The notes beneath the pieces are model-generated. The model had not been told where the DNA came from. It saw only the letters and a program-made list of their open reading frames with translations, and did no database searches. From Plasmodiophora brassicae (taxonomy: Eukaryota): DNA of 64,000 nucleotides. Position 1 is the stretch's first letter. Every line of letters starts with the position of its first letter. The position numbers and the translations under genes were made by a program. The stretch covers positions 806,001-870,000 of the forward strand of contig CP145422.1 in NCBI GenBank assembly GCA_036867785.1. Reading direction: 5' to 3'. This document shows positions 28,001-52,798 of this stretch, piece by piece.

Positions 28001-31000
28001 TGCGTGCCGAGGACGAGAACGGCAACGTGATCGTGGGTGACGCCAGCGTCATAGATCATGTGCAGGAGATCGTCGTCGGTGAACCGGTGGCGCCAGGCGC
28101 GCTCCGGGCGAACGTCGACGTCGGGCGAGCACAGGGCGATTTCGACACAGCGGTTCCGAACGGCACGAGACAGCGATCCTGTCGAAGGTCAGCGGGGCGA
28201 CGACGCGGGACCGGGTCGAACGTGGACCCACCGTGCTGTTCGTCGACCGTGAAGAACATTCGGAAGTCGGGATGCGGCAGGATGGTTCGCGCCCGCCCGC
28301 TCTCGTTGATCAGCAGCGTGCCGCCGGGTTCCAGGAGCGCGTTCAGACGGTCGAGCACCGATGGGGCGCACAGGTTGGCATTGTCGAGCAGGACCCAGGC
28401 ACCGTTCTGTGGCACACACACAGACAGACGACGCCCCCCGTCAGCATCGGTCCGATTGATTGGCCCGAACGTTGCACAGCCGTACCTCAACAGCGACCGT
28501 CAGGGGACCGTCGACCCATTCGAATCGGCCCTGGGCGCCGCCCTCCTCGCATTGACCGATACGGGACACGTCCACGCCGAGGCGACCCGCCAACGACCGA
28601 ACCACGTCGGCCTGACCCTTATTCCACCTGCCGAGGGACGGTCAGAACACACCGGTCCAACCTCGTGCACGCCACGAACCCTTGAGCGATGGGGAGCCGT
28701 TCGACGACGTTCCACAGGTCGAGAAGGTCGCTGGTGACGGACCCGCTCGCTGAGGCATGGATCATGGCTTGTCGAAGGGTCACGATCAGGTTTTGTCGAT
28801 GCCGGGCGGCATCGACCTGCTCGAAGGCGCCGAGGAGTTCGGTGGCGTCGAGCGCGGCGCTGACAGCAATCTCGACGAGCGGTCGGGACGCGATCCGCGA
28901 CGCTAGGCGCACGATGCTCGTCTTGCCGCTCCCGCCGGGACCGACGACGATCACCGGCAGGCGCTCGCGAACGCATCGCAGCATGTGCAGGAGCGGGGCC
29001 CGGTACGCGTGCGGGACATCGAGGACGTCCGACCCCTTCGTGATCGCCAGCGCGTTCACATGCTCGTGGACGACGGCAACGGGGCCGTCGGCGAACACGT
29101 CGTCAAAGATACGACGCAGGGCGGAACGGTCGCGAGCGTTCCGTAGGCGCTGGAGGTAGACGAGGTCGACGACCTGCGAAGGGCACGTCGGCGACAGCGA
29201 GACGGATCGAAGCAGGTCGCGTAGGTTGAACTCCCATGGGGCGCCGCTCGTCGCGAAGCGCCGCTCCAGGCAGATGGCCACGTGCGCCCGCTCGTTGAAC
29301 TCGATCAGGCGTGGGTCGCATCCGTTCAGGATGCGCGTGTAATCGCCCTGGGACATCTCCTCCAGGTAGACCTGTCGGGCCACTGATCAGCAACGCGTTC
29401 GGGCGGGACGGCGACAAGCGCGTCCGTTCCCACCTTTGTGAAACGGTTGAGGAACGACGCGGGAAGCGCTTTACGACCGCCACCTTCCTGGACGGGGTTC
29501 TGGCAGGCGAACACGCGGAACGACGGGTGGCAGGTGAACGTGCGGTCCAGTTCAGGGATGAATCTGAACAGGGGACGCGTTCAGCGGACAGCACGTATCA
29601 TCACGCCCAGGGAACGCGTTTACATTTCGGCGCGGTGATCGAGCACCGAGTTGAGGCCCTCGAGGACGGACTGGGAGGCCAGGTTCAGCTCGTCGAGGAG
29701 GACCCAGTGGCCGTGGACCAGCGCGTCCAGGAAGGGGCCGTTGACCCAGGTGAAGGTGCCCGCGGGCGCGTCCGCCATTGGCAGGTCGCTGCCCAGCAGG
29801 TCCATCATGTCCGTCTGCTCGGACAGGTTCAGGCGCGTCACCCGGTGCCCAGAACGCTGGCCGAGCGCCACGACCAGCGACGTCTTGCCGACACCCGGCG
29901 ACCCTTCCAGGAGAACGGCCTTGCGAAGTTGCAGGGCACGAAGGACGCGCGTGACGTTCCGGCGGGCGCTGGTCGCCTCAAAGTCGTACCGCCTGCAGCA
30001 ACCACGTTAGGCGATGAGTCATGACGACGACGACGAACGGCGACACGAACGTCGGTGCTGCAGGATCCGGGCCGACGTCGACGAAGAACGGGGACAGGCC
30101 GAAACGCGCGCCGTCGCTGACGAGCGGCGCATGGCTGTGCACAGAGCAGTCGTGGAAGTCGACGTCGCGTTCGACCAGGCGGCGCTCGTCGTCGGGCAGG
30201 ACGTCCAGGGCGACCCGCAGCGCGTGCTGGCGCCGCTGCCGAGCGCGATCGGGTGCATCGCCGGACGCGATCCCGATGCCATCAATCACCTGTCGTTGTC
30301 GTTAGGCAGGGACAGCGAGCCGGGAAGCGCGAGTGGTGTACCGTCAGCAGGGCGGCGTTGACGAAGGCGAGCGGCAGCGGGACACGATCGGCGACCGACT
30401 CCATGAAGTGGACAAAGGCGCGCAGGTCGCGCAGCGAGGCGCGCTCGCGGGCGTGCACGTCGAACCCGTTGACGAACGCGACCAGCGGCGCCGCGTACGC
30501 CCGCAGGTCGTCCCGGCGGACGCCACTGGACACGATCGCCAGCAGGTCCTGATCCGACAGCCGGTTCGGGATCCAGACCTGTTCATGGTGGTTGCTCAAC
30601 CGGTGAACGAACGCGGGCACGTGCATGTGCAGACGCACCTCAGTGAACCGGTTGCGAAGCGCGGGCGACAGCTCCTTCTTGCCAAAGTCGCCGCCCGGGT
30701 TCATCGTCGCCACGACGCGGAACGCGGGATGGGCGACGACGCGCTCCTCGTCGCCCGACTTCTCCGCCAGCAGGATCGACCGGCCCCGCTCCAGGACCGA
30801 GTTCAGGCGCTCGACGACGGCGTCCTCGGCTGTGTGGGCGCACATCAGAATCGCACACGGCGAACGGATCACGCCCACGACGACGACGTACCCAGCGAGA
30901 TCTCGTCGATCAGGATCATGTCGCCGCGGCGCATGGCGACGACGAGCGGCCCGTCGACCCATTCGAACATGGCGCTGGCGTCGCGTATCGCGTCGGCGGC

Positions 31001-34000
31001 GGCGCTCAGCAGCAGCGCCGCCGCCTCGTCGCCCGTCGACCCCGCCAGACGCTCGCGGGCGCCCGTCAGCCCTGTTGCCCGCACACACAACGTCAGCGAG
31101 GGTCACGAACGCGCATCGCCCGACGTACCGCAGGCGTCCAGGTCGATGCCAACGGCGGCCAGCGCCGTCCGGGCGCGTTGCCATCGCGCGGCCCGATCGC
31201 GAACCGGGCGCAGGGCGCCGATCAGGTCGGCGGCGTCGCTGTGCTCGTGCAGGTTGACGACGTGGAGCGTCTGGCGGCGCAGGGCGGCCAGCGCCTGGCA
31301 GACGGTCGTCTTGCCCAGGCCGGTGTCGCCGACCAGGAGCACCGGCTCGCTGGCGTCGAGCGCCGACGCGCACAGCGCCATCATCCTCGTCATCTGCTGC
31401 GTCAGCGCCAGCGCCGGCACCGACCCGCCGCGACGAACGAGGTCGCCGACGACCCGGTCGTACCAGGCGTCCATCTGCAGGGCGGCGTCGTCCACGTTCA
31501 GGTGCCGTTGCAGGCAGGCGCGCACCGCCTCCCGATCGTCGTCGTTGCGCAGGCGCTCGCCGAGCAGCATGAAGCCATGGGCGGCGATCTCGCCCGTCGT
31601 CGCCGGGCGCCGCCCCGCCCATCGGAACAGGTCGCGCGACGTGATCGCCCCGCTCTTGCCGGCGAAGACGCGCGAACGCTGCCGCTGCCGTTGCAGGTCG
31701 ACCATGACGTTCACCTGCGGCGCGTTCACGACATGAGCCCAAACGGAGATACGCGCGTTGACGCCCGACGTACCATTCGGCGACAATGCGATGGCGCCAG
31801 GCGACCGCGACGTACCAGGAGGACGACGAGCTCATCGACGGGCATGTCGTCGACGTGGACCTCGACGAACCGGTTCCGGAACGCCCGGGACAGGACCTTG
31901 CGACCGCCGTACGACCCACCGGCCGGCTGTGGCAGGGATCGTCAGATCAGGGCACACGTCGTCGACGCATGCAGGCGCTTACGTTCTGGGTGGCGAACAG
32001 CGCGAAACGCGGGTGGGCGCGGATGCGTTCGTGCGTCTCGGGGACGACGAGCTCGCGGTTGTCGTCGAGCAGGCGGTTCAGCGCCTCGAGGACGTCGCTC
32101 GGCGCCAGGTTCAGCTCGTCCAGGACGATCCAGTGGCCGTGACGGACGGCCTTCACGAGGGCACCTGCACACGGGTGTCAGGGACGAACGCCCCTGACGG
32201 TGACGACGACAACCAACCTTCGATGAACGTCAGGCGGCCGGTGGCAGGGTCGGTGCCATACGACCCCAGGTACTCGTCGATGTCGGTGTGCTCGTGGTTG
32301 TTGATCCGGACGAGGCGATGGCCGGTGCGCCTGGCCAGGTAGTCGACCAGGCTGGTCTTGCCGGCCGAAGTGGGCCCTTGCAGGAGAACGGGCAGGGGGA
32401 CGCCGCTGCCCAGCGCCCGGCACACGTCCGTCAGGCGCTCCTCGACGGTCGCCGTCAGGATGAACTCGTCGTCGTCCCCACCGGCCACCGGCGGCAGCGG
32501 CCCGCGACGAAGACGGAACCCAGCGATCTCGATGCAATCGTCGGGCGGCGGGCGACGAAACGAAGGGCCGCCGCCGCTGCTTCGGGCGAACGCGCTCAGG
32601 TGCGGTGCACACAGCGACCTGGACGGCGCGTCGCACGGCGTCAGGAACGCCATGGTCATGCCCTCGTGCAGCGCCCGGGCGACGCCCATGCTGTTGCAGG
32701 CGTCCCTGGCGTAGCGCAGCGCCCGGCACAACGTTCGCAGCGAGTACACGGGGACGTCCATGCCGGACGAGGTCAGCGCGCGCTCCCCCGACAGGCGTCG
32801 CAGCGTCCGGTACGCGTCGACGACGTCGACGTGGTTCGCCACAGGCGCCGGCAGGACGTGCTGGACGAGGACGCGCAGGTCGGCAGCGTCGTCGACGTCG
32901 TCGACGAAGATCTCGGTGAACCGGGAGCGGACCGGGTGCGGCAGCGGGCGCTTGCCGGCGTCGGTGTTCGGGTTCATGGCGGCGAACAGGCGGAACGACG
33001 GGTGCCGCTCGACCTGGCGCCCTTCGAAGTGGAACGCCGACGACGACGACGGGTCGAGCAGCGATTGCAGGGCGAAGAGCGTGGACGACGCCGCCAGGTT
33101 GATCTCGTCGAGCAGGATCCAGTCGCCCTGGCGCAGCGCGCGCACCAGGGCGCCTTCGACGAACCAGAACGCGAACGCGCCTCGCTCGTCGTTCTGCACC
33201 TGACGGCGGAACACGTCGAGGTCGCGCGCGAACGCCTGCCATTGCCGGCGACGCTCGGGCGAGACGGGCTTGTCCAGCGCCATGCTCGTCGACCGGGATA
33301 GCAGCTTGGCGAGGTTCGCCCAGTGGCCGTTGTCGAACGCCTGACGGATGGACGCCAGGAACGTGGCGTTCGACGCCCGCGAGAACGTCAGCGGGAACAG
33401 GGACCCGAACGCGTTCAGGATCGGGATCGACGCGGTGCGAAGGTCGACGGGGCGGTACCCGCCCAGGAGCTCGCTGGTGTCCGACTGCTGCGACATGTTG
33501 CAGACGACGAGCACGCGGCCGCGCTGCCGAGCGCATTCGTCCAGCATCGCCGTCTTTCCGTTGCCCGTCTCGCCGACCAGCAGGACGGGTTCGTTGGCGT
33601 CGACGGCGTCGTGGATCCGGGACATGAGGACGGAGGCGGCGCGCGTCGGCGCCAGACGGGTCGCAGACGCCAACGGGTGCGGGTCGCGTTCGCGAACGAC
33701 GTGAGCGTTCCTGGCGGCATCGATCCGCCAGAGAGCGGCGATGTCGTTCGACAGCTGGTCGCGCGCGGGCCCCGCAGGCATCCAGGCGACCAGGCAGACG
33801 TGAACGTGTTCGAGGACCTTCTCCCGGATCGCCGACGACGGTGCGGAAGGCAACGACAGGTGGTGCAAGCGCTGGCAGAGGCGCACGAAGGCGCGAATCG
33901 GTGCACTGTTCGTCAGCGTCAGCGTGCGAAGCAGCGTGTCGCGATGTGGGACCAAGGACGGGAAGCGGTCGCTGATGATGGACAGGACGTCGCCGGGCGT

Positions 34001-35008
34001 TAACGCTGGGATGACGATGTGCGAGAACAGGGCGTCGTACGGCGCCGTGAGCGGCACGCTTCGCGTTGCAAACAGGCGGAACTCGTCGTGGGCGACCTGG
34101 TCGCCGATACGGCCGCGTTCGAGCAACTCGCGGATGATGGAGATGATGTCGGGCGGGCACCGGTCGATGCCGTCGATCACGATCCACTGGCCGTCGACGA
34201 CGGCGCGCGTCAGGACGCCGGGAACGTACCGGAATTCGCCCGGGGTCTCTGTGCAGACGTAGGTGCCCAACAGCGACTTCACGTCGGTGTCGTCGTCGAG
34301 TACAAGCCGGATCGGGTCGACGGGTCGCCCGACACGACGGGAGAAGGCGCGCAGCAGGGTGGATTTCCCGCTGGATGGCGGGCCTTGGAGAAGAACCGGG
34401 CGGCCCGTCGCCAGGGCCATCGCCAGAGATTCCATGGCGGATGCAAAGTGAGGCAGTGCGACAAACGTGCCGTCGCCAGGTGCGGAACCTGAATCGTACC
34501 GGCATTGAGGAGCGAGAACGACAAACGCGGTGTGCAATCGTTTCGTACCTGGCACCTGCAACCGGATTGGAATTCGGCCAATCATTTGACGGGAGGAGCA
34601 GACCGAAGCAGAGCGGCTCCAAGCATCGGCAGGGCATGCAATAGCAGCGGTTGCTGGCGGGAGTTGACCAAGCGACAGGAGGAGAGCGCGGTGCGCACCC
34701 AGCGCCAGCAGGGAGGTCCTGCTAACCAGCTGTGTCGCTCGACTGTGAGAAACCAGCCCCGTCTCCAGAAGCTTTTCAACAGCGTCTACGTATTCGACGC
34801 TGGCAGCGCGAGGCGGCGACGTCGGCAGGATCCCAAGAACGGCTTCCTTCATATGGGGCGCGATCCTAAGCAGCCTAACGGCCACTCGAAGCAACTGGCA
34901 TTGATTGTCACGATAGCACGTTGAAAGGGCGTTCAAGCTCTCGTCGGCGTCATGGCTGGCGAGATAATCGAGTACGTCCTTATCGTCGTGACACCTGTCC
35001 AGCCACAT
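19056..35008 (-). CDS. MDN1: Midasin (dynein-like AAA-ATPase, 60S biogenesis), multi-exon
   Basis: Six Walker A motifs (GPPSSGKS, GETGNGKT, GPTSAGKT, GDTGLGKT, GSPGVGKT, GPGGSGKT) and repeated WILLDEINL / FAAMNP motifs. A long linker and D/E-rich tract precede a C-terminal MIDAS/VWA domain (GAFRTGKRLNMRRVIAYIASSFRKDRIW, AIDNSLSM). The start (MWLDRC) is inferred. Confidence 0.95.
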
Positions 35009-35172
35009 GACTGGGCTCCTGGTCAGGAGCGGTGTTGCACTTTGAGGGGGACTCCGTACGGACTCCGTGGCGGAGTCCGCGGTGACTGGTGGACGCCCGA
35101 CATCACGACGCAACACGTTGTGGCAATACAGGCCGCAAGTGCACTTTAGTGCCTGCATGGGTTTCGTGGCGC

Positions 35173-43003: not shown

Positions 43004-44068
43004 TTACACGATCGTGTAAGACGGCATGAAGTGACCGCTACGCGGCGATGCCATCACCGGCATCAGCTGCAGACGCTGGAATGGATTCGAATGTGGATCC
43101 GCGTAGAACCCTGCGACGATGCCAGTCAATACATCGGGCGCGTCATCGGAAACCAGAATCCGACCATCAATGATTCCCGATGCGCGATCGAATACGATGT
43201 AATAGAACCCATCACTGCCACAGCAGCTGAGCGCCATCCACTCCACATCACGCAACATGGGACGTACATTGTCAAGCCGCAGTCGGAGGTCAGGTTGATG
43301 AAGTTTGTTTCTAGTAGCCGCGTGTGGGTGGATCGATTGCCGACCATGCACAGTATGATCGTGCTACCTTTCCATCGCATATACAGGACACGAGAACGCG
43401 CCAGATAGTCGCTGAGTTGACGTCGTGCCTCGTGGCACTCCTCCATAGCTGCCTTGCTGCCTTTGACCATGGGCGTATTCGGGAAAGCTGCCAACCGAGC
43501 TAGCTCCTCGGTGAACGACGGGAACTTGCCCCAGTGGTCAACTGCCTCCACGCGGGTGATTAGGCGACGCCTAACGCCAACGTGCAGGCGGGCGTCTTAC
43601 GGTCCGATTGGTACGTTGACCCCCATTTCCGCGTTGCGAACGTGGACGTGATCCCATTGACGATCTCGCCCTCCCAGTGGGTAAGGACGTGCTGTTGAGT
43701 AGTCGCTGGGACGTCCATTGCCTAATTGTAAACATCAGGCACTGATGTATACTAGCGTTGCCTCCGGAAGCGAACCTCCATGGTACCGGAAATCTTCCCT
43801 GCACATATGTCGACATACTCGATCTCCTAGCGCAGGGCGTTAGCAGGAAGGCGGGCCTCAGAGATCGGTCGGAGCGCACACCGACCACTCGCACAGCCCA
43901 GGTCTGAGGCACCGTGTTCGACACGACCGTCTGCGTGCCGCGGAACGCCTGGCCGGGGTGCAGGTACGACAGCAGGACGCCCTGGACGCACCGCCCGCAG
44001 GCGCAGAGCGACTCACCCGCCTCTGTCGCCGCGGCGGCTCGCGATTTCCTCGGCGACGGCCCTGGCAT
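43004..44068 (-). CDS. GID4: GID4/VID24-like Pro/N-degron receptor of the GID/CTLH E3 ligase, multi-exon
   Basis: YLHPGQAFRGTQ, WAVRV, HWEGEIV, HWGKFPSF, LYMRWK, GFYYIVFDRASGIIDG and FYADPHSNPFQRLQL. Confidence 0.8.
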
Positions 44069-44365
44069 CGTGGACGTCCGTCGCCGCTACACCCCCACCC
44101 CCTGAAATAAATAATGACGTCGCCCCGTCGTGGGAGCGCGCCACACCACCGCCTCGCTGCGACTTACCTAAACGGTAACGCTCCACCGTCCACCGACATA
44201 AAGCTATTTCTAGGACGAGGCCATGCTGCCGCCTTTTGGACATGATCGCAGCCGGTGCTGTTCGACGGTACAGCACCCACAGGGGCCCAAACGCGGATGA
44301 ACGCTGACAAATAGAATACGGCTATGCATTTACGACAGTATAAGTTAGTGGGAGGGGCGGACGGG

Positions 44366-46225
44366 TCATACAGGCTGGCTGCGGTTCCTGGGGATGCCCG
44401 CGAACTGCTCGGGTGTGGCGAACAGGGTGCCCGCGTTGCCGAACGTGTCGGCGTGGACGAGGTACGCGCGCCTGGCCTTCTCGTACGCGTTGATGGCTTC
44501 AAGCGCGGCGGATTCGTCCCAGGAGGCGGAGTTCTTCGCCTGGTACATGTCCTCGAGGACGCGTTCCGCTTCGCGGAGATCCTCGTAGACAGGCAGGGCA
44601 GCAGCCATGTCGGCGGCGCGCTGTTGAATCCTTTCACAGCGCTTCACGTTGGACGCGTTGACGGCTTTGAGCTGCGCCTGAAGGCGTCGAAGATGGGTGG
44701 CGACTTCGTCATCGACCCGGTTCTCCGCCTTCGCCACATCGACGGATTTGGCCTTGCTGGGTGGCAGGAGTCCCATGAACTTCAACTCGAGGCGAACCCG
44801 TTCCTCGAAGAACGACTTGACGGGCGGGACTGTCTTCGGGGGAGGCGGGGGCGGCGGGTCCTTCGCCGAGTAAGCAGTGGGGGCAGATGCGAATTGGGGC
44901 GCTGTTGCTGCGCCGCCATTCAGGACGATCGCATCATTCGGTAGGGAGAACTGGAAGGTGCCGTTCGCGGTGGCACCGGCAGCGCTGGCAAACGCCGCCG
45001 CCGTGGCCGCCGTCGTCCCTGCCGTCTTCCTCAGTGGGAACACAGCTGCAATGCATCGTTGCGCCAGCGCATGCTGCTGGAACCCCTTCGGTGGCTTTAG
45101 GCGCTTGTCTACCTCAATGATCTGCTTCCGCACGTTCGTGTCAGCAATTGCCATCGCGTCTGATTTAGGCCTGAACCGCCTGGTGATCGCCTGATAGCTC
45201 TTCTTCTTTTTCTTGTTCGCTAGACGAACCTCGTCCAATTCCTTCCACTCCTCGGGATAATGCCTCCCAAGGGGCGGGACTTCGAACAGTTCCGGGTCAA
45301 CCTGTGCGAACGTTAGCGGGTTACGGGGCCACGTTGCGGCTTGGGCAACCGACCTTCGGTCGTATCAGCTGCAGGTCGTCATCGGTAGGGAAGCGGAAGT
45401 AGTCAGCGGTAGAGGTCCACAGGGAGTCAGGCGGTTTGACAGTCGATTCCTTGCTATCTTCCCCGGCACCAGAGCGTTTCTTTTTCTTCCTGAACACGTA
45501 TAGAGCCGTTCATACATGATAAAGGAGGTCGTGCAGACTCCGACAGTTTACCGCTTGCGGTCTCGTTCGCGCTCGCGATCCCGTCGTCTCTTCTCATCGC
45601 GTTTCCGTTTCTGATCTGCAGCCCCCATGAATCAGGAATGGTACCGAGCACAGCAACGCCCGAAGCGAACGTACTCTCTTCAAAGGATCGTCTGCTGCTC
45701 TGATCGGCCGCTGCTGAACCAACGTCGTCAGCAGCGCAGTGGATGGGGGCGGAACCGATTACCCACCTGCGAGGGCCTCCTCGTTTGACACAATCTCCGT
45801 GTTCCTTAGGACATCCATCCATTCCGCGTATCCTTTCTCTGCAGCATTCTGTTAGTCCACTGGCAAATCAGCACTGTTTGGAAATGCGAACCGAGTTGCA
45901 AAGGAGAGTTGGTCGCGTTCGCGACGTCGACCAGGTGCTTGTGCAGTTTGACGGCTCTGGCGCGTGCATACCGCTGCAGACCAGTCAGCTCCTTCATGGC
46001 CAGCTTGAGCTGGTCGATGGAGAACGACGGCGCCGCTGCATCCCACATGCGTTCCAGGTCGGGAACGGGGAACGCCTGGCACAGGCTCGCCAGCGTCGTC
46101 GCCGCCGACGGCATCGGCACGGGCGCCGCCGACGATGCCGCCCCGATCGACACGACGTCCATGTCGGCGTCGTCCATCGACACGTCCTGGTCGTCGGCGA
46201 CGACGACATCGTCCGACTCGGCCAT
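44366..46225 (-). CDS. ADA3: ADA3/NGG1-like SAGA HAT-module subunit, multi-exon
   Basis: LWTSTADYFRFPTDDDL, VPPLGRHYPEEW, LAQRCIAA, FEERVRLELKFMGLL and DDEVATHLRRLQAQLKAVNASN. The start (MAESDDVV) is inferred. Confidence 0.72.
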
Positions 46226-46489
46226 CTCGACGCCGCCAAGCTGCAGCCCCACGGAGTCCCGACGCCGCCGCCCTTCACAAACGATCCCCCCGCCGGACGA
46301 CACAAACCCGGCGGCGGTACCTCGCTGGCCCATCACCTGCAGCCACCTGCGAAGCAGCTGTGCCAGGAATAGTCCAGCGGGTTGCCAGATGAACGGGATT
46401 AGACAGGGGCCGGCCAGCTCGGCCACGGCGCCAAGGGGACTTGATTGGCCGCACACGGCAGTTGCGCGTTCATGCGGTGACCCGTTGCC

Positions 46490-49400
46490 ATGTTGCCTGG
46501 TGCTGTCCATCACGTCATACGCCGGCAACGGGTGCCGCCCAGGTTGCTCGGTGGCGTTGCTGCCCTTGCGCCATCTGTTGCGCCATCTGTTGCGCCGGGC
46601 GATGAGCGCGCGTCTCTGTCGAGCGCCGTCCGCATCATCAGACGGGGCGAGGACGCCGATCGCGTGTGGGCCGCGTTCCACGGCGTGCTCGACGCGAAAC
46701 CCGATCGTCGGTTCGTCCAGGCGATGCTGGCGTACTGTGCGGAGCGCATGCCGGCCAAGGCTCGCGATGTTCTGGACGAGGCCATTCATCGTGGTGTCTG
46801 CATCGCTGACGACGCTCTGTTCTGCACGTTTCTGAAAGCGTGCAGTCGCACGAAGCCAATCGCGTTTCGAGACGCGCTTGAGTTCTACAAGAAGTACGGG
46901 CCGCGATCGCACAACGTCATCTTCGGCGTCGGCAACGTTTGCAGGCTGGCAGGCCATCCCCAGCTAGCTCTTGAACTGATCCAGGACGGCATCGACCAGA
47001 ACGTGGAGTTCAGCGAAGCGCTCGTATCGTTGTTCGCTGTGATCTGCGCCGAATCGCATTGCCAGCTGGCGGCCGACATGGCCGAACTCCTGCTGGAACG
47101 CGTTCGGGCGCATCGCATCGCATCGCATCGCAACCCTCAGCTGTACGCGAACTTCGCCAAAGCGTTGCTGTCGCAGAATCGTTTCGACGCTGCCGTTCGC
47201 ATCCTGTCGCTGCTGGACTGTATCGGGATGCAGCCGTCCGAACAACTCGGCACGCTTCTGCTGTCGTCGCTCGCCAAGGCGGATCGCGCTGACCTGGCCC
47301 TGGATGTCTTCGACGTGATGGCTCGTCGGGCGATTCGCGTGCCAGCACCCGCGTTCGGCCTGCTTGTATCGGCGTGTGCCCGACAATCCGATCTGGCATC
47401 TGTGCAGATGCTATTACGATATGCTCAGGAACGCTCTGCCGATCTTCTGAACGACACTGTTCTATGCCGGTTCGTGTCCGCCTTCGGTTCCCGTTCGGAT
47501 GTGCATCGGGTGCGCCTCATGGAATTCTACGCGAACCTCAAGGGCCTCATGAGCAAGTCGTTTGTGCTCACGTCGTTCGTTTCCGCCTATGGCCAATGTT
47601 CCCTCTCGACGTCTGTCGCTGCGTTGGAACGTGTCGCGCGCGACAATGACCTTCTGCAGCAAGATGTCGTGGTCGCCGCGTTCATTGAAGCGTACGGCGG
47701 CTGTTGCGATATCGAGGCCGCGCAGCGAATCTTTCAGGAGCGATGCTCCACCAAGCCAACGCCTGACATGGCGACGTTTGCGGCTGCCATTACATTGTAC
47801 GCCCGCCATGGTATGCCGCTGGACGCTCTGACATTGTTCGATCGACTGGAGTCCGGCAATCGGAAGCCGCCCAGCGAAGTGTACCCGGCCGTCCTTAGTG
47901 CCTGTGTGACGCTGAACGATCCCGCCCGTGCTACGCGCGTGTTCCAGTTGATCGTCGATGGTGATCACATCCAAATACCGAGGGATGTGCTGCAAAGTTT
48001 CGTGTCCTTATGTGGTCGCTGCTCCGATTTAAGGGCCCTGTCCGCTGCCCACCGTTACGTCGCAGGATGTTCGTCACTCAAGGATGATGACGATCTTACA
48101 AATGCGTTTGTCCTGGCGTTTGACCAATGCGGGCGACTGGACATTGCGAAGGACATCTTGCTGACGTCTTCGTCGTTTCGGACGTTGACCCTTCCGACCA
48201 TGGTGCGGATATTCGCTCGACATCAGCACGTGGATGAAATGGTGTCATCGTTCGAGTCGATGGTGGCAAGCGGGGCGGATGCCAGTGACGACCTGCGTGC
48301 GCTTGTGTGCAGAGGCCTGGCAAACGCGGACCGTATTCCAATGGCTTTGGAACTCGTTCGCGGCATGGCACACGTCGGCAACGCTGTTGTCGTCGATCTG
48401 GTGTCGGCTTGCGGTCGCTGCGTACATCTGTCGGATCTCTCGCTTCTGTATCGGTATGCGAACGAAAAGGACTGGATTCTAAACAATGCTGTGGGTGGCG
48501 CGTTCATTCAGGCGTATTCGCTCTGCGGCCGTGTTGATATTGCCGAACAAGTCTTTCGCGATCTGGTGACCTACTCGCTTGACGCGTACACTGCAATGAT
48601 TGCTGCCTATGGCCACCATGGCCTCGTACCAGAAGCATTGGCGATGCTGGACCAGCTGGTGTACGCCGGCCTAGAGCCCTCAGCGGAGATCCTGGCAGGT
48701 CTTCTGGCCGCTTGCGAGCACGCCGGCGATCTGTTTCGCGCCAACGACATTGTTTTCGAGTTCAACAATTCCTGGGGCATTCCTGTCGGCGTCACTCACA
48801 CGAACCATCTACTGTCCCTTCATGGGCGTCTGAGTGGCCCTCTGGAAGCCATGACAATGGCGACGTCGCTGCCCGGTGCTACTGCCGACATGTGGATGGC
48901 CGTCCTGACTGCTGCCCGTACACATAATGACATCGACCATGCCGAATCTGCCTTTAACCGCCTTGTTTCGATGCCCGACGCCGCCACCTGTCACCTTTGT
49001 CGCGCCTTCGAAGTGATGTCGGATGTCTACGCGCGAAACGGTCGGCCTGACGATGTGAGCCGTCTCCGGGACGGGATGAAGAGCAGAGGCATTCCGGATT
49101 CGCCTGGACGAACGAAAGTCAGTCTGCCGGACGGTACTGTGGAATTCCTGGCGGACGACGCGAGGTACTACACGGATCCGGGTCTGCGCCATGACATGAC
49201 TCGCCTGATCAACGACCTCACTGACAACGGGTACTCGCCGGACACATCGGTCATCAGACGTGCGACTGTGTCACAAGAGGAAGCGCGGCAGGCGGTGTGC
49301 TTGCACAGTGAAAAGCTTGCAATTGCATACGCTCTCAAGCATTCGTCGCGATCCGGCGTACCCGTTTGCGCGGCCAGCGACCTGCTCGTCTGTACGGATT

Positions 49401-49516
49401 GCCACGACGCCGCCAAGTTTGCCTCGAGCATCACCGGCCGCAGTATCTACATTCGTGACACCAGCCGTCATCATCATTTCCACAACGGTAAATGCTCGTG
49501 CGGTGACCATTGGTAA
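46490..49516 (+). CDS. Pentatricopeptide-repeat protein with a C-terminal DYW cytidine-deaminase domain (1008 aa, intronless)
   Basis: Many PPR units (e.g. AYTAMIAAYGHHGLVPEALAMLDQL). An E-like region and PG box (SPGRTKV) precede GYSPDT, HSEKLAIAYAL, LLVCTDCH and RSIYIRDTSRHHHFHNGKCSCGDHW*. Confidence 0.95.
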   Translation: MLPGAVHHVIRRQRVPPRLLGGVAALAPSVAPSVAPGDERASLSSAVRIIRRGEDADRVWAAFHGVLDAKPDRRFVQAMLAYCAERMPAKARDVLDEAIHRGVCIADDALFCTFLKACSRTKPIAFRDALEFYKKYGPRSHNVIFGVGNVCRLAGHPQLALELIQDGIDQNVEFSEALVSLFAVICAESHCQLAADMAELLLERVRAHRIASHRNPQLYANFAKALLSQNRFDAAVRILSLLDCIGMQPSEQLGTLLLSSLAKADRADLALDVFDVMARRAIRVPAPAFGLLVSACARQSDLASVQMLLRYAQERSADLLNDTVLCRFVSAFGSRSDVHRVRLMEFYANLKGLMSKSFVLTSFVSAYGQCSLSTSVAALERVARDNDLLQQDVVVAAFIEAYGGCCDIEAAQRIFQERCSTKPTPDMATFAAAITLYARHGMPLDALTLFDRLESGNRKPPSEVYPAVLSACVTLNDPARATRVFQLIVDGDHIQIPRDVLQSFVSLCGRCSDLRALSAAHRYVAGCSSLKDDDDLTNAFVLAFDQCGRLDIAKDILLTSSSFRTLTLPTMVRIFARHQHVDEMVSSFESMVASGADASDDLRALVCRGLANADRIPMALELVRGMAHVGNAVVVDLVSACGRCVHLSDLSLLYRYANEKDWILNNAVGGAFIQAYSLCGRVDIAEQVFRDLVTYSLDAYTAMIAAYGHHGLVPEALAMLDQLVYAGLEPSAEILAGLLAACEHAGDLFRANDIVFEFNNSWGIPVGVTHTNHLLSLHGRLSGPLEAMTMATSLPGATADMWMAVLTAARTHNDIDHAESAFNRLVSMPDAATCHLCRAFEVMSDVYARNGRPDDVSRLRDGMKSRGIPDSPGRTKVSLPDGTVEFLADDARYYTDPGLRHDMTRLINDLTDNGYSPDTSVIRRATVSQEEARQAVCLHSEKLAIAYALKHSSRSGVPVCAASDLLVCTDCHDAAKFASSITGRSIYIRDTSRHHHFHNGKCSCGDHW

Positions 49517-50025
49517 CGACGCGGGCGGAAGTACCAACGTTAGAGATGATTAAAGTTAACGTAACGTCACATATTTGGGAATCAGAAGCCAGGTCGGTTT
49601 CGGATTGGACGAGCCCCTGGACTCGTAACCTGTCAACCATCACCGGATTATCAATCATTCCTGGACGGAGGGACTTGTAGGGTTCAGCGGTTGAAACAAC
49701 TCGCGTTCGTCCTGTACGTACTGGAGCCCTTACGTTCACCTGGCCACGACTGCAGCAACGGCACGAGCTCACCGAACCACCTGACGTGTTCGACATGGGC
49801 TGACGGGAGGCGACTGCTGGCCCCGGGATGGCCGAAAATAGGTAATCAATCCGCCCGGAAGAAATCAAACGGCGAGCGAAGCGACCAGGCCCAGCCAGAG
49901 GTCTCGAACGGTTGCTATGAATAGAAAGTCCGTCAGTGGCTGCACGGAACGTCGCAGAACGTCGCAGCCGCCGCTATTTCTAGCGTCGCCGCGGCCCAAC
50001 GCAGTCATTTCGCGATTGCGCGGCG

Positions 50026-52176
50026 ATGTCGAGACTGACGACGTCGTATTTGCTGGCGGTGCTGGCGTGTTCGTTCGTGTGCTCATGCTGTGATCTGGAG
50101 GATGCGTTGACGGGGGCGCTGATCCGGGCAGCCTTTGATGGCGACATGAAGGAGATGACCCGCATTCTCAATAATGGGGCACGTGCAGACGGCAAGAATA
50201 ACGAGGCTCTGATCATTGCTTGCACGCGAGGGAACGTTGATGCGGTCAAGTTGCTTCATCAGCGTGGCGCTGACATACAAGCTCGCGGATTTGAGTGTCT
50301 GGTCCGAGCGGCAAGCACACCATCCCTCGACCTTGTCAAGTACCTCGTCGATGATTTACGGGCGCCTGTCAGAACCCAGAAGGACGGGCCGCTCGTTGCC
50401 GCCGTTGCCAACGATCGCCGTCAAATCGTCGAGTACCTTCTTAAGAATGGTGGAGACCCGAACGCACGTGATGGGTTACCCTTGGCGACCGCGTGCGCGC
50501 TCCATTTGAACTCTGTAGCGAAGGCGCTGGTGCAGCGTGGTGGTGTCCCGACCGAATCGGTCGTGATTCTGGGTGTCAAGGAAAACGACGCAGACTTGGT
50601 TGGACAGGCGCTTCAGGGCGGCGTGTCTGGGGCCGCCCTACGTGGAACAGGCATAGTTGCCGCGGTCCAGATGGGGTTTCATACCATCGGGGATATGCTC
50701 ATCGACAATGTAGTAACGACCGACGCCTGGGGAGACCCGGAATTCCTGGACAACATCCGAAACCTGCACAGCGTGGACATCCTGACCCGATTCCTGAAAC
50801 ACGACAAAGTTTCCCGGGAGAGTGTAATCCGGTCCCTGGAATGGGCTGTGTCCAAGGAAGACCCCGAGTTGGTTCGTGCGATCTTGGCGAATGTCAACGA
50901 CAAGATTCGGTACGATGTCGCACGCCAGGTCGTATTCTCCAAAAACGACAACGTGTTGCGCGGGGTCACCGTCAATGGCGTGCGCGAGGTTCTATACCAG
51001 TACCTCATGATGTCGATTGCCACTAGAGCCTTCGCAAGCGACAATATGACTGACGTCATCGCCGCAGCGGCCGTATTCGGATCACGGCAAACGTCACCTG
51101 AGCAGGTGCTGACAACGGTGAAGAACGCTATCGGTCCTACGTTGAGCAATCGCGACAATATCCGTGAGATGCTGACCAAGCTGAGGGATCGCAAAGTAGC
51201 TGAGGCGGCGGCCGGACACCCAGCTCCCAGCCCTGCTCAACCACCGTCACATGCCGTGAACATGCAGGCGCCCAGTCCTATTGTATCGCCGACACCTGTT
51301 CCGAATGATCTCACGCCGACAGTGACCCCAGAATCCAGTGGTGGACCACCGTCACCAATGTCCTGGGAGCCCTCCTCACCTGCGGATGTGAACCGACCCC
51401 AACGCGCTGGACCATTGCCATCTGCGGCGATGATCCGGGAGATGGTAGCGTCGACGTCGGGCAGTGGACCTGACTGGCAAGCCCCGACAAGCCGTGATCG
51501 CGCGCCGACCCCAGAACCGCTGGGCGCCGACCATCCGCACAGACGGGCCTGGCGGTTCCATCCATATGATCAGTCCGGCGCGGGTCGACCAGGCAGATCC
51601 CGTCCTGGTGGGTACAGCTCCTTCTACAAGACCAGGCCCTGCCGTTATGGGTTTGGAAAGCCCGAATTGTGTCCGTTTAATGACAAATGCATTTTCGCTC
51701 ACAGCGAACGCGAACTGAGGCAGCTGTCAGCCTGGCCATCCCGTTCTGAAGATCATCGAGGCGGAGAGCAAGGAGGAGATCATGGATCTTGGAGTTCATC
51801 CTCGCAGGACCGCAGTCGTGGCAGATGGCGCGAGAGGTCACCCAGCAGGACGACGTCGTATGATCAGTCGAGCGAGTCGCGGACGTCGTCGTATGATCGG
51901 CCGAGCGAGTCGCGGGCGTCTTCTTATGATTGGTCGAGCGAGTCGCGGACGTCATCGTATGACCGGTCGAGCGAATCGCGGACGTCTTCGTATGATTGGT
52001 CGAGCGAGCCGCGGATGTCGTCGCCTGGCCGCCGAGATGAACGCGAGTACGTATCGCACCGATACAGTCGACATGGAGACAGCAGTGACGAATCTGGTTA
52101 CGCTGGCGGCCATCGCCATACCTGGCGCGATAGTCCATCTCGGTACTCAACACCGCGCGGACACAACCGTCGGTGA
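50026..52176 (+). CDS. Secreted ankyrin-repeat protein with a CCCH zinc finger and Ser/Arg-rich tail (716 aa)
   Basis: Signal-like MSRLTTSYLLAVLACSFVCSCC, then ankyrin repeats (ALIIACTRGNVDAVKLLHQRGADI) and a Pro-rich linker. The zinc finger is YKTRPCRYGFGKPELCPFNDKCIFAHSERELR. Confidence 0.88.
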   Translation: MSRLTTSYLLAVLACSFVCSCCDLEDALTGALIRAAFDGDMKEMTRILNNGARADGKNNEALIIACTRGNVDAVKLLHQRGADIQARGFECLVRAASTPSLDLVKYLVDDLRAPVRTQKDGPLVAAVANDRRQIVEYLLKNGGDPNARDGLPLATACALHLNSVAKALVQRGGVPTESVVILGVKENDADLVGQALQGGVSGAALRGTGIVAAVQMGFHTIGDMLIDNVVTTDAWGDPEFLDNIRNLHSVDILTRFLKHDKVSRESVIRSLEWAVSKEDPELVRAILANVNDKIRYDVARQVVFSKNDNVLRGVTVNGVREVLYQYLMMSIATRAFASDNMTDVIAAAAVFGSRQTSPEQVLTTVKNAIGPTLSNRDNIREMLTKLRDRKVAEAAAGHPAPSPAQPPSHAVNMQAPSPIVSPTPVPNDLTPTVTPESSGGPPSPMSWEPSSPADVNRPQRAGPLPSAAMIREMVASTSGSGPDWQAPTSRDRAPTPEPLGADHPHRRAWRFHPYDQSGAGRPGRSRPGGYSSFYKTRPCRYGFGKPELCPFNDKCIFAHSERELRQLSAWPSRSEDHRGGEQGGDHGSWSSSSQDRSRGRWRERSPSRTTSYDQSSESRTSSYDRPSESRASSYDWSSESRTSSYDRSSESRTSSYDWSSEPRMSSPGRRDEREYVSHRYSRHGDSSDESGYAGGHRHTWRDSPSRYSTPRGHNRR
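51849..52013 (+). repeat. Coding 33-bp tandem repeat x5 (RTSSYD[RWQ]SSES)
   Basis: Five consecutive units of gacgtcNtcgtatgaYYggtcgagcgagtcgcg. Confidence 0.95.
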
Positions 52177-52798
52177 ACCACGTGATCCCTTGTGTCCTCA
52201 GGGGCCTCAGGCGTATCTCAATGGACGACAATACAAATTTCGTACGGGATTGATATGAACCAGCTGGGCAGGTTGTACAAGCGACGCCAACGATAAGGTC
52301 ATCCCGGATCTGGATGCCGGCGGTGCGCAGGGCCACCGACGACGTCTGGTACACGTCAGGAACAGGTGCTTCCACAGATAATGCGCCGTCTTGCAGGAGC
52401 GCGAACGACACCGATTCCCATAACCCAGAAGGAATAGGGAGCGAGCATACCATCGCGTTCTCGGAATGGATGTGCTTGCGGATGGATCAACTGCTGCTGG
52501 CAGAACTCGTCGGCCTGATGAACTTCGTGAAGGCACACAGAGGGTTGATCGGAAGGATGTCGTATGACCCATGTACTCCGAATGCTTCTTCTCGAGCACG
52601 TGTGCAGCCGTTGCGATGGACAGAACTTTCGCGTTCGAACAACTCAATCCAATGCGACATCGTCGATGGGCACTACCCTAAACGCATTGTTCATGCCGCG
52701 CTTCGGGAAGTACGTTTCGTCGTCGAAGCTATGTCCTGATGCTGCACTGTGATGTGTTTGTACACACCATCCACAAGGGTGTCCACCAACGCGACGCG

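What the first reader, a model, noticed from the sequence alone, without database searches (positions are those of the whole stretch)
46490..49516. Plant-style PPR-DYW RNA-editing factor in an apparently non-plant protist genome
Seen: a 1008-aa intronless ORF among intron-rich neighbours. It has a long PPR array, a PG box, intact zinc ligands HxE (HSEKLA) and CxxC (CTDCH), a terminal DHW, and an Arg-rich, acid-free N-terminus (MLPGAVHHVIRRQRVPPRLL). Established: PPR-DYW proteins catalyse C-to-U editing in land-plant organelles and are only patchily present elsewhere. Inference: this organism may have an unrecognised mitochondrial C-to-U editing system, gained by horizontal transfer (possibly from a plant host) or retained from an ancestor.
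Basis: partly seen in the sequence, partly recalled or inferred. Interest (0 to 1): 0.88.

Follow-up and report, generated by a model that had tools for sequence, protein, structure and literature searches.

The report
Clubroot parasite's plant-like RNA editing factor
An intact, transcribed gene of the clubroot parasite Plasmodiophora brassicae encodes a plant-type PPR-DYW protein, one of at least sixteen in that species, which predicts still-undescribed C-to-U RNA editing in the parasite's mitochondria.

Summary
Window 46490-49516 (+) is a 1008-aa ORF with PPR repeats, an E motif and a full-length DYW deaminase domain with all zinc and catalytic residues. The host genome is Plasmodiophora brassicae (Rhizaria, Phytomyxea): the neighbouring midasin ORF is 98% identical to the named P. 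brassicae midasin, next hit 40%. The gene is transcribed and unspliced. In 4 of 4 laid runs from 4 studies, contigs that splice five 52-62 nt introns out of the upstream gene cover the ORF with no sense-strand joint. It is not a host chimera or a recent host transfer. Its composition matches its neighbours. It is one of at least 16 deeply diverged P. brassicae PPR-DYW paralogs (28-38% identity) that form their own clan apart from plants and Heterolobosea. It differs from plant factors: no P-L-S triplet period, few canonical code residues, and a clade-specific conserved N-terminal block. Mitochondrial C-to-U editing is the likeliest function but was not testable here. DYW domains in Rhizaria are already in print (2025, 2026), so this is a new member of a known kind, of moderate interest.

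The parts
46224..49537 (+). Minimal transcribed span covering the gene (one 3314-nt RNA contig), with a 266-nt leader before the ATG
   Evidence: run X18 record 10. Contigs of X15 (46344-52445) and X17 (45892-49814) also span the whole ORF. X19 covers it with overlapping contigs. Contigs cannot fix true transcript ends.
46490..49516 (+). Coding sequence of the PPR-E-DYW protein, 1008 aa plus a TAA stop, with no intron
   Evidence: No sense-strand joint in 4 of 4 RNA runs.
46490..46603 (+). Residues 1-38: Arg-rich, acid-free, disordered N-terminus, a putative mitochondrial presequence (inferred)
   Evidence: First acidic residue at position 38. pLDDT below 50 for residues 1-38. Only 19% identity to paralogs here. 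No targeting predictor was available.
46622..47359 (+). Residues 45-290: clade-specific conserved N-terminal helical-repeat block (degenerate PPR-like)
   Evidence: 38-43% identity with full cover in 24 of 24 clade rows, against 13-14% in plants and Willaertia. Only weak PPR/TPR Pfam hits. Generic PPR by Atlas features.
47360..48577 (+). Residues 291-696: variable central PPR array, the presumed specificity-determining part. The last units read as P-P'-L-S.
   Evidence: Identity 27-33% and cover 0.37-0.55 among paralogs. Motif starts 35-36 aa apart, with 31-aa S-type motifs. Helix pairs in the model.
48578..48883 (+). Residues 697-798: terminal P2-L2-S2-like triplet (35, 36 and 31 aa)
   Evidence: Motif lengths, helix pairs, best Pfam PPR hit at 699-727. 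The P2/L2/S2 naming is my reading.
48884..49102 (+). Residues 799-871: E1 and E2 motifs
   Evidence: PF20431 at 812-877. Aligned to the E1-E2 region of 9kfx_A.
49103..49513 (+). Residues 872-1008: DYW cytidine-deaminase domain including the PG box
   Evidence: PF14432, full profile. PDB matches 9kfx, 7w86 and 7o4e. Beta-hairpin 874-887 and an alpha/beta core in the model.
49304..49321 (+). HSEKLA: zinc ligand His939 and catalytic Glu941
   Evidence: H939 is invariant in the 34-row alignment A1.
49391..49405 (+). CTDCH: zinc ligands Cys968 and Cys971
   Evidence: C968 and C971 are at least 90% conserved and H972 is invariant.
49472..49513 (+). HHFHNGKCSCGDHW: C-terminal second zinc-site motif (H995, C1002, C1004) and the terminal DHW tripeptide
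   Evidence: H995, C1002 and C1004 are invariant in A1. DHW was seen in 2 of 170 C-termini tallied (the window's own plus one other), against DYW in 113.

Best explanation
This is a genuine, transcribed, intronless nuclear gene of Plasmodiophora brassicae. It encodes one of at least 16 paralogous PPR-E-DYW proteins. The likeliest mechanism is as follows. The disordered Arg-rich N-terminus directs import into the parasite's mitochondrion, its only DNA-bearing organelle (recalled; not tested here). About 22 PPR-like hairpins bind one or a few specific mitochondrial transcripts, with the variable central array setting the specificity. The P2-L2-S2-E1-E2 end positions a target cytidine. The zinc-dependent DYW deaminase (His939, Glu941, Cys968, Cys971) converts it to uridine. 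Shown here: architecture, catalytic residues, fold, expression, species, family size and clan. Inferred: localisation, RNA binding, deaminase activity, and the existence of C-to-U sites. The family arose before its paralogs diverged deeply. Whether that was an ancient transfer to or from the plant lineage, or old protist ancestry, is unresolved.
For: Domains: PPR E 7.4e-28, E motif E 5.7e-08, DYW E 1.7e-27 over the full profile. Residues 812-1008 align over all 197 residues with the solved synthetic PPR-DYW 9kfx_A (E 1.4e-41), and partly with DWY1 (7w86) and the At3g63370 DYW domain (7o4e). HxE, CxxC and the H...CxC motif are intact. The AlphaFold2 model has mean pLDDT 88.3, about 24 helical hairpins over residues 43-865, then a beta-hairpin and an alpha/beta domain. 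The best fold match is 9kfx_A, E 1.1e-26. Expression: 4 of 4 laid runs (4 studies) carry contigs that remove five GT..AG introns from the upstream gene and cover the ORF with 0 differing letters. Species: midasin neighbour 98% identical to the P. brassicae protein, next hit 40%. Family: of 29 distinct top hits looked up, 14 are named P. brassicae clusters, and PBRA_001489 makes 15. They form a 99/89 clan with the window. Presequence-like N-termini recur in the paralogs: 11 of 12 N-termini printed have 5-9 R/K in the first 40 residues. Precedent: PPR-DYW genes together with mitochondrial C-to-U editing are reported in paradinid Rhizaria (PMC11946409, passages read), and that paper cites the same for other protists.
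Against: No editing site, mitochondrial sequence or localisation was examined, because no genome or mtDNA is held and the single read-laying run went on the gene itself. The two P. brassicae mitochondrial-genome papers I could search do not mention editing ('editing' 0 times in 10.1101/335406; once, in a reference title, in PMC6823432). Positions 5 and last of 17 delineated motifs give a canonical plant code pair in none, and only a doubtful reading in 2. RNA recognition may therefore differ, or my register may be off. The array lacks the roughly 102-aa P-L-S period seen in 5 of 6 plant proteins. After 'PG' the PG box diverges from the plant consensus, and the tripeptide is DHW rather than DYW. 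Seven of the 16 P. brassicae paralogs have lost the catalytic Glu or the CxxC, so the family is not uniformly under selection for catalysis. A hydrophobic stretch at residues 19-28 (Kyte-Doolittle 1.86) leaves some ambiguity between a presequence and a signal peptide.
Confidence: 0.6

Rival explanations
1. It is a mitochondrial RNA-binding factor that no longer edits, or never did. The PPR tract would stabilise, cleave or help splice a transcript of the intron-rich mitochondrial genome, and the DYW domain would serve as a structural or nuclease-like appendage.
For: Seven of 16 P. brassicae paralogs have a degenerate catalytic site, which shows the fold can be kept without catalysis. DYW-less relatives share the same N-terminal block (P0004-P0006). 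The mitochondrial genome is described as intron rich (PMC6823432 abstract). No editing is reported in the papers searched. Canonical code residues are mostly absent.
Against: This particular paralog keeps every zinc ligand, the catalytic Glu and the C-terminal zinc motif. Its DYW domain is the most conserved part of the protein, together with the N block (43%). Nine of the 16 paralogs keep the full site.
Confidence: 0.22
2. It is a recent horizontal transfer from the brassica host, or a host-plant contig wrongly joined into the parasite assembly.
For: The parasite lives inside plant cells. The C-terminal 197 residues align over their full length with a plant-consensus protein.
Against: GC 0.59 and GC3 0.67 match ten neighbouring ORFs. 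Parasite transcripts with parasite-type 52-62 nt introns run contiguously into the gene in 2 of the 4 laid runs (X17, X19). Twenty runs from 8 studies hold the locus, 14 of which may be the source. The named plant domains looked up are 33-39% identical. There are 15 further P. brassicae paralogs in one clan that excludes all six named plants. A clade-specific N-terminal block is absent from plants.
Confidence: 0.01
3. It is a secreted effector that enters host mitochondria or plastids and binds or edits host organellar RNA.
For: There is a moderately hydrophobic stretch at residues 19-28 after a basic N-terminus. Clubroot infection changes expression of host PLS-class PPR genes at night (PMC13247141, passages read; this concerns host genes only).
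Against: The paralogs' N-termini look like classical basic presequences. No signal-peptide predictor could be run. A large paralogous family with a variable recognition array fits housekeeping organellar RNA work. Nothing here places the protein outside the parasite.
Confidence: 0.03

Closest known systems
Land-plant PLS-class PPR-DYW editing factors (solved examples: synthetic consensus PPR-DYW 9kfx; DYW domains of DWY1, 7w86, and At3g63370, 7o4e)
   Same: Same C-terminal organisation: a 35-36-31 aa triplet, then E1-E2, then DYW. Full-length DYW Pfam match. The same HxE...CxxC and H...CxC zinc motifs. End-to-end alignment of 197 residues at E 1.4e-41, and the best fold match.
   Different: No roughly 102-aa P-L-S periodicity. 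The last units read as P-P'-L-S. Few canonical code residues. A conserved 245-aa N-terminal block that plants lack. A divergent PG box and a DHW terminus. A separate clan in the domain tree. 33-39% identity to the named plants in the E+DYW part.
Other Plasmodiophora brassicae PPR-DYW proteins (for example PBRA_001489, PBRA_004378, PBRA_001847, PBRA_007282; named 'DYW domain-containing protein' by their sources)
   Same: Same species, the same N-terminal block, the same E-DYW end and the same clan.
   Different: Only 28-38% identical over their aligned stretches. Central arrays differ in length. Seven of the 16 have lost the catalytic Glu or CxxC, whereas this one is intact.
Heterolobosean DYW-type PPR proteins (Willaertia magna here; Naegleria and Acrasis in the literature, where mitochondrial C-to-U editing is documented)
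   Same: Non-plant protists with PPR-DYW proteins that have a complete DYW domain and no plant-type 102-aa period.
   Different: They fall in a different clan, nearer the plant rows than the phytomyxean clan is. They have no match to the N-terminal block. Their PG box is more plant-like. Editing in Naegleria and Acrasis is known to me from paper titles, one abstract and citations only.
Paradinid (Ascetosporea, Endomyxa, Rhizaria) PPR-DYW proteins with mitochondrial C-to-U and A-to-I editing (PMC11946409)
   Same: Rhizarian (Endomyxa) lineage. PPR-DYW with conserved H, E and C residues. Mitochondrial targeting was predicted for one of them.
   Different: That paper groups paradinid DYW domains with fungal ones, through a shared two-residue deletion. 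I had no paradinid sequences, so I could not test their relation to the P. brassicae clan. One to three genes were reported there, against at least 16 here.

Membership tests
PPR-DYW (PLS-class, DYW subgroup) organellar C-to-U RNA editing factors | Tandem array of PPR helical-hairpin motifs | tested here: met
   Pfam PPR E 7.4e-28 and PPR_2 E 4e-20. 18 motif starts found by an iterated motif HMM. About 24 helix pairs over residues 43-865 at high pLDDT.
PPR-DYW (PLS-class, DYW subgroup) organellar C-to-U RNA editing factors | Regular P-L-S triplet organisation (period about 102 aa) | tested here: not met
   BLOSUM autocorrelation: 5 of 6 plant proteins have a dominant 101-103 aa peak. In the window protein and in 15 of 15 P. 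brassicae relatives the ~102 peak is never stronger than the ~35 peak. L-like (36 aa) and S-like (31 aa) motifs do occur, but in P-P'-L-S units.
PPR-DYW (PLS-class, DYW subgroup) organellar C-to-U RNA editing factors | Terminal P2-L2-S2 followed by E1 and E2 motifs | tested here: met
   Motifs of 35, 36 and 31 aa at residues 697-798. PF20431 E motif at 812-877. Full-length alignment to the E1-E2-DYW region of 9kfx_A.
PPR-DYW (PLS-class, DYW subgroup) organellar C-to-U RNA editing factors | Complete DYW deaminase domain with the HxE(x)nCxxC zinc/catalytic signature | tested here: met
   PF14432, profile 1-93 of 93, E 1.7e-27. HSE at 939-941 and CTDC at 968-971, 29 residues apart.
PPR-DYW (PLS-class, DYW subgroup) organellar C-to-U RNA editing factors | C-terminal second zinc site (H...CxC) | tested here: met
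   H995, C1002 and C1004 are invariant in the 34-row alignment. That this motif binds a second zinc is recalled from the plant structures, not tested here.
PPR-DYW (PLS-class, DYW subgroup) organellar C-to-U RNA editing factors | PG box at the start of the DYW domain | tested here: inconclusive
   PG is present at residues 872-873, and a beta-hairpin is predicted at 874-887. The following residues differ from the plant and Willaertia rows.
PPR-DYW (PLS-class, DYW subgroup) organellar C-to-U RNA editing factors | Terminal DYW tripeptide | tested here: inconclusive
   It ends in DHW. Among the 170 C-termini tallied: DYW 113, DFW 21, DHW 2. That variants are tolerated in plants is recalled, not tested.
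PPR-DYW (PLS-class, DYW subgroup) organellar C-to-U RNA editing factors | Specificity residues (positions 5 and last) that follow the plant PPR code | tested here: not met
   Of 17 delineated motifs, none has a canonical pair, 2 have a doubtful one, and position 5 is T or N in 5. The register is my own and the code table is recalled.
PPR-DYW (PLS-class, DYW subgroup) organellar C-to-U RNA editing factors | Import into a DNA-containing organelle | not testable with these tools
   Only indirect evidence: an acid-free basic N-terminus, disordered residues 1-38, and similar N-termini in paralogs. No TargetP, MitoFates or SignalP was available.
PPR-DYW (PLS-class, DYW subgroup) organellar C-to-U RNA editing factors | A cognate C-to-U editing site in organellar RNA | not testable with these tools

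The most novel reading that the evidence does not exclude
The P. brassicae PPR-DYW genes are an old, independent protist branch of the DYW editing machinery, not an offshoot from within crown land plants. They would have their own architecture: a shared N-terminal docking block, a non-triplet array and a non-plant recognition code. They would also divide the labour, with the paralogs that lost the catalytic Glu or CxxC (7 of 16) acting as site-recognition factors that borrow the deaminase of intact members such as this one. That would parallel the plant arrangement (recalled) in which factors lacking a DYW domain borrow one in trans. It would also make protist-to-protist spread as plausible as plant-to-protist transfer, or even a non-plant origin.
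Probability: 0.2. Interest if true: 0.75.

Novelty: new member of a known kind. Interest (0 to 1): 0.48.

Why it matters
P. brassicae is a major crop pathogen whose mitochondrial genome has been annotated twice, and the texts I could search make no mention of RNA editing. A family of at least 16 expressed or annotated PPR-DYW genes predicts that some mitochondrial codons are corrected at the RNA level. That would change the gene models and add Phytomyxea to the short list of non-plant lineages with plant-type editing. The prediction can be tested with public data alone. Because the family forms its own clan with its own architecture, it is also a useful data point in the debate on whether protist DYW proteins came from plants by horizontal transfer. 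The gene's existence is not news: related entries already carry automatic 'DYW domain-containing protein' names, and a 2026 survey counts 31 DYW domains in Rhizaria.

Tried and rejected
No whole genome is held for the window, so I could make no genome-wide paralog count and had no mitochondrial DNA. A direct test for C-to-U sites was therefore impossible, and the single read-laying run had gone to the nuclear gene. The look-up of sequencing runs listed no holder on record as RNA ('no RNA holder listed'). Four runs guessed to be RNA were laid and proved to be spliced. The word-index search restricted to residues 812-1008 found only 6 proteins and added little beyond three named plants. My first regex for HxE was too strict and gave false blanks, so I replaced it with an alignment. 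Reading a target from the plant PPR code gave nothing usable. The Atlas search on the N-terminal block returned only generic PPR clusters, and Pfam on it gave only weak PPR/TPR hits, so it is not a new fold. Host chimera and recent host transfer were considered and rejected. At first I read the organism as a phytomyxean other than P. brassicae, because the best named hit was 33% identical. The midasin test overturned that. The bootstrap of the careful tree had not fully settled (correlation 0.945). Supplementary tables of PMC13386178, which would name the rhizarian species and perhaps this very gene, are closed.
Full report
OBSERVATION. An in-frame TGA lies 12 nt upstream of the ATG. The next in-frame Met is residue 79, which is inside a conserved block, so Met1 is the only start that keeps that block. 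Pfam gives PPR (E 7.4e-28), PPR_2 (E 4e-20), E_motif (E 5.7e-08, residues 812-877) and DYW_deaminase (E 1.7e-27, residues 914-1008, profile positions 1-93 of 93). The PG box starts at residue 872. HSEKLA is at 939-944, CTDCH at 968-972, and the C-terminus reads HHFHNGKCSCGDHW. The first acidic residue is at position 38.

WHAT ORGANISM. No genome is held for the window. The best named full-length relative was a P. brassicae protein at 33% identity, which at first suggested a different phytomyxean. The tools hide names for the window's own proteins, so I tested a single-copy neighbour. The 1000-aa midasin ORF (32153-35155, minus strand) is 98% identical over 88% of its length to 'Midasin [Plasmodiophora brassicae]', and the next hit is 40%. 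The window is therefore P. brassicae, the clubroot parasite (Rhizaria, Endomyxa, Phytomyxea). Other neighbours are ordinary eukaryotic genes: Ada3, ankyrin, and ankyrin plus zf-MYND.

IS THE GENE REAL, EXPRESSED AND NATIVE. Twenty public runs from 8 studies hold window 44000-52500, although 14 of them may be the source of the assembly. I laid four runs guessed to be RNA, one from each of four studies. In all four, one contig skips five stretches of 52-62 nt, each bounded by CT..AC on the + strand (GT..AG on the minus strand), at 45299/45352, 45488/45551, 45615/45675, 45713/45767 and 45838/45892. These runs are therefore spliced transcripts, and the upstream minus-strand Ada3-like gene has at least five short introns. 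The same runs cover the PPR-DYW ORF with no sense-strand joint and no differing letter: X15 46344-52445, X17 45892-49814, X18 46224-49537, and X19 45892-49447 plus overlapping contigs. The gene is thus transcribed and intronless. The downstream gene (50026-52176) is also unspliced, so 'intron-rich neighbours' holds for one side only. GC (0.592) and GC3 (0.672) fall within the range of ten neighbouring ORFs (GC3 0.593-0.824), and there is no second copy in the window. A host-plant chimera or a recent host transfer is not tenable.

A FAMILY, NOT A SINGLETON. An exhaustive HMMER search with residues 812-1008 against 1.84 billion representatives found 1983 proteins at E<=0.001, 1223 at E<=1e-10 and 34 at E<=1e-30. 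I looked up 29 distinct hits by name. Fourteen are named P. brassicae clusters, and with PBRA_001489 that makes 15 distinct paralogs besides the window's gene. Two are Willaertia magna (Heterolobosea). Four are plants (Amborella, Selaginella, Asparagus, Carica). One is an unidentified EukProt transcript. Eight are unnamed environmental or Logan proteins. Over their aligned stretches the paralogs are only 28-38% identical to the window's protein, and the best-scoring one, P0040 (unnamed), is 34% identical over the full length.

For the first tree I dropped 6 rows with partial cover and 19 redundant cluster members. The quick tree of 151 E+DYW domains then split a 31-row side, holding the window and the ten P. 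brassicae rows named at that point, from 120 other rows (SH-aLRT 95). A careful IQ-TREE run on 84 rows (LG+C20, 197 columns) gave three results. A 28-row clan holds the window, all 15 named P. brassicae paralogs and 12 unnamed rows (ultrafast bootstrap/SH-aLRT 99/89). A separate 34-row clan holds all six named plants (99/86). Environmental rows and a Willaertia group lie between them. There are three caveats: the bootstrap had not fully settled (correlation 0.945), the tree is unrooted, and the sampling is limited to the best 150 hits to this one query.

HOW IT COMPARES WITH PLANT FACTORS. The C-terminal 197 residues align end to end with a solved synthetic PPR-DYW (9kfx_A, E 1.4e-41), and partly with DWY1 (7w86) and the At3g63370 DYW domain (7o4e). 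In a 34-row alignment H939, H972, H995, C1002 and C1004 are invariant, and C968 and C971 are at least 90% conserved. An AlphaFold2 model built with that alignment has mean pLDDT 88.3. Residues 1-38 are disordered, about 24 helix pairs run from 43 to 865, a beta-hairpin sits at 874-887 and an alpha/beta core follows. Its best PDB match is 9kfx_A (E 1.1e-26, target TM 0.59).

Four things differ from plant factors:
- Periodicity. Five of 6 plant proteins show a dominant 101-103 aa self-similarity period (the P-L-S triplet). In the window's protein and in 15 of 15 P. brassicae relatives that peak is never stronger than the ~35 aa one.
- Motif order. An iterated motif HMM gives 18 repeat starts, mostly 35-36 aa apart, with 31-aa S-like motifs. 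I read the last units as P-P'-L-S, P-P'-L-S, then P2-L2-S2-E1-E2-DYW.
- Code residues. Positions 5 and last show no canonical plant code pair in 17 motifs, and a doubtful one in 2. The register is mine and the code table is recalled.
- N-terminal block. Residues 45-290 are 38-43% identical in 24 of 24 clade rows, as conserved as the DYW domain (43%). The central array is variable (27-33% identity, cover 0.37-0.55), and plants and Willaertia show only noise there (13-14%). Pfam and Atlas features read this block as weak, generic PPR. It also occurs in DYW-less P. brassicae PPR proteins (by eye).

Within the family, 9 of 16 P. brassicae members, including this one, keep HxE and CxxC. Seven have HSD, HSV, HGP, HVD or a broken CxxC.

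MECHANISM. The best-supported reading is a mitochondrial site-specific C-to-U editing factor. It would be imported through the basic, disordered N-terminus. The helical array would bind RNA, and the DYW deaminase would act on a cytidine positioned by the E1-E2 motifs. Architecture, catalytic residues, fold, expression and family are shown here. Localisation, binding, catalysis and the very existence of edited sites are inferred. I put this at 0.6. The main rival, at 0.22, is an organellar RNA-binding or processing role without editing. The degenerate paralogs and the absence of any report of editing favour it. The intact active site of this member counts against it.

WHAT IS KNOWN.
- PMC11946409 (passages read) reports C-to-U and A-to-I editing and PPR-DYW transcripts in paradinids. 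It states that C-to-U editing had never before been reported in rhizarians. It does not mention Phytomyxea or plasmodiophorids (0 occurrences).
- PMC13386178 (section 7 read) counts '31 DYW in Rhizaria' and reads non-plant clusters as transfers from plants. The species are named only in supplements that I could not open.
- The two P. brassicae mitochondrial-genome papers do not discuss editing or PPR proteins (PMC6823432, passages; 10.1101/335406, term counts).
- PMC8298192 (passages) lists two P. brassicae 'pentatricopeptide repeat-containing' genes as nitrogen-responsive, without further comment.
- Searches for DYW with Plasmodiophora (2 papers), and for C-to-U with Plasmodiophora (3 papers), returned only papers where the terms occur in unrelated contexts. 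Searches pairing DYW or C-to-U with other phytomyxid terms listed no paper holding either term among the 15 and 10 shown.

The kind is therefore known, and its presence in Rhizaria is in print. What I did not find in print is any treatment of the P. brassicae family, its architecture, or editing in phytomyxean mitochondria. Subscription journals are outside the library.

VERDICT. This is a correct and well-described observation of a real gene. The option of a recent host transfer is not supported. It is a new member of a known kind, with some variant features worth following. Interest is moderate (0.48), mainly because it gives a cheap, decisive test with public data in an important pathogen.

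Noticed in passing
window 46622-47359 (residues 45-290 of the protein); also proteins P0003-P0006, P0010-P0016 and others: A block of about 245 aa at the N-terminus is as conserved among the P. brassicae PPR-DYW paralogs as the deaminase domain (38-43% identity, 24 of 24 rows). It also occurs in DYW-less PPR proteins of the species and has no counterpart in plants or Willaertia. Its function is unknown; it may be a shared docking or partner-binding module.
   Followed up: partly
paralogs P0015, P0016, P0023, P0027, P0039, P0045, P0068: Seven of 16 P. brassicae DYW domains have lost the catalytic Glu (HSD, HSV, HGP, HVD) or the CxxC (CPASH) while keeping the C-terminal zinc motif. This suggests catalytically dead members that may need a partner.
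   Followed up: partly
window 44306-46369 (minus strand) against 46224 onward (plus strand): The Ada3-like upstream gene has five introns of 52-62 nt. Its transcript contigs reach 46369, while PPR-DYW contigs start at 46224-46344. The two divergent transcripts therefore overlap head to head, and in two runs (X17, X19) they were assembled into one contig.
   Followed up: partly
window 49446-49508: One contig in one run (X19, depth 9.5, shorter side 29 nt) skips 61 nt bounded by CT..AC, which is an intron in minus-strand sense, inside the last codons of the DYW domain. It may come from an antisense transcript, but the evidence is weak.
   Followed up: no
window 46389 and 46472: There are two ATGs in the 266-nt leader. 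The second is in frame with the main ORF but is stopped two codons later by the TGA at 46478, making a minimal upstream ORF.
   Followed up: no
window about 22000-34000: GC rises to 0.66-0.70 across the region that holds the midasin ORFs, against 0.54-0.63 in most of the rest of the window.
   Followed up: no
window 50026-52176: The downstream intronless gene encodes N-terminal ankyrin repeats and a C-terminal tail with a tandemly repeated 'SSYD.SSESR'-like unit. By eye it also has a C-x-C-x-H zinc-finger-like stretch that Pfam did not report.
   Followed up: no
window 49857: There is a G>A difference in one RNA run (X19) in the intergenic stretch after the gene. It is most simply a strain polymorphism.
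   Followed up: no
literature, PMC11589745: The Acrasis kona genome paper says its candidate horizontally acquired genes trace especially to 'Plasmodiophora', among a few other groups. Since both lineages carry DYW-type PPR genes, protist-to-protist exchange of these genes deserves a look.
   Followed up: no
proteins P0017, P0020, P0021, P0038, P0042, P0135, P0156 (metagenome-derived): Unnamed environmental PPR-DYW proteins branch between the phytomyxean clan and the plant and heterolobosean rows. This hints at further undescribed protist lineages with such genes.
   Followed up: no
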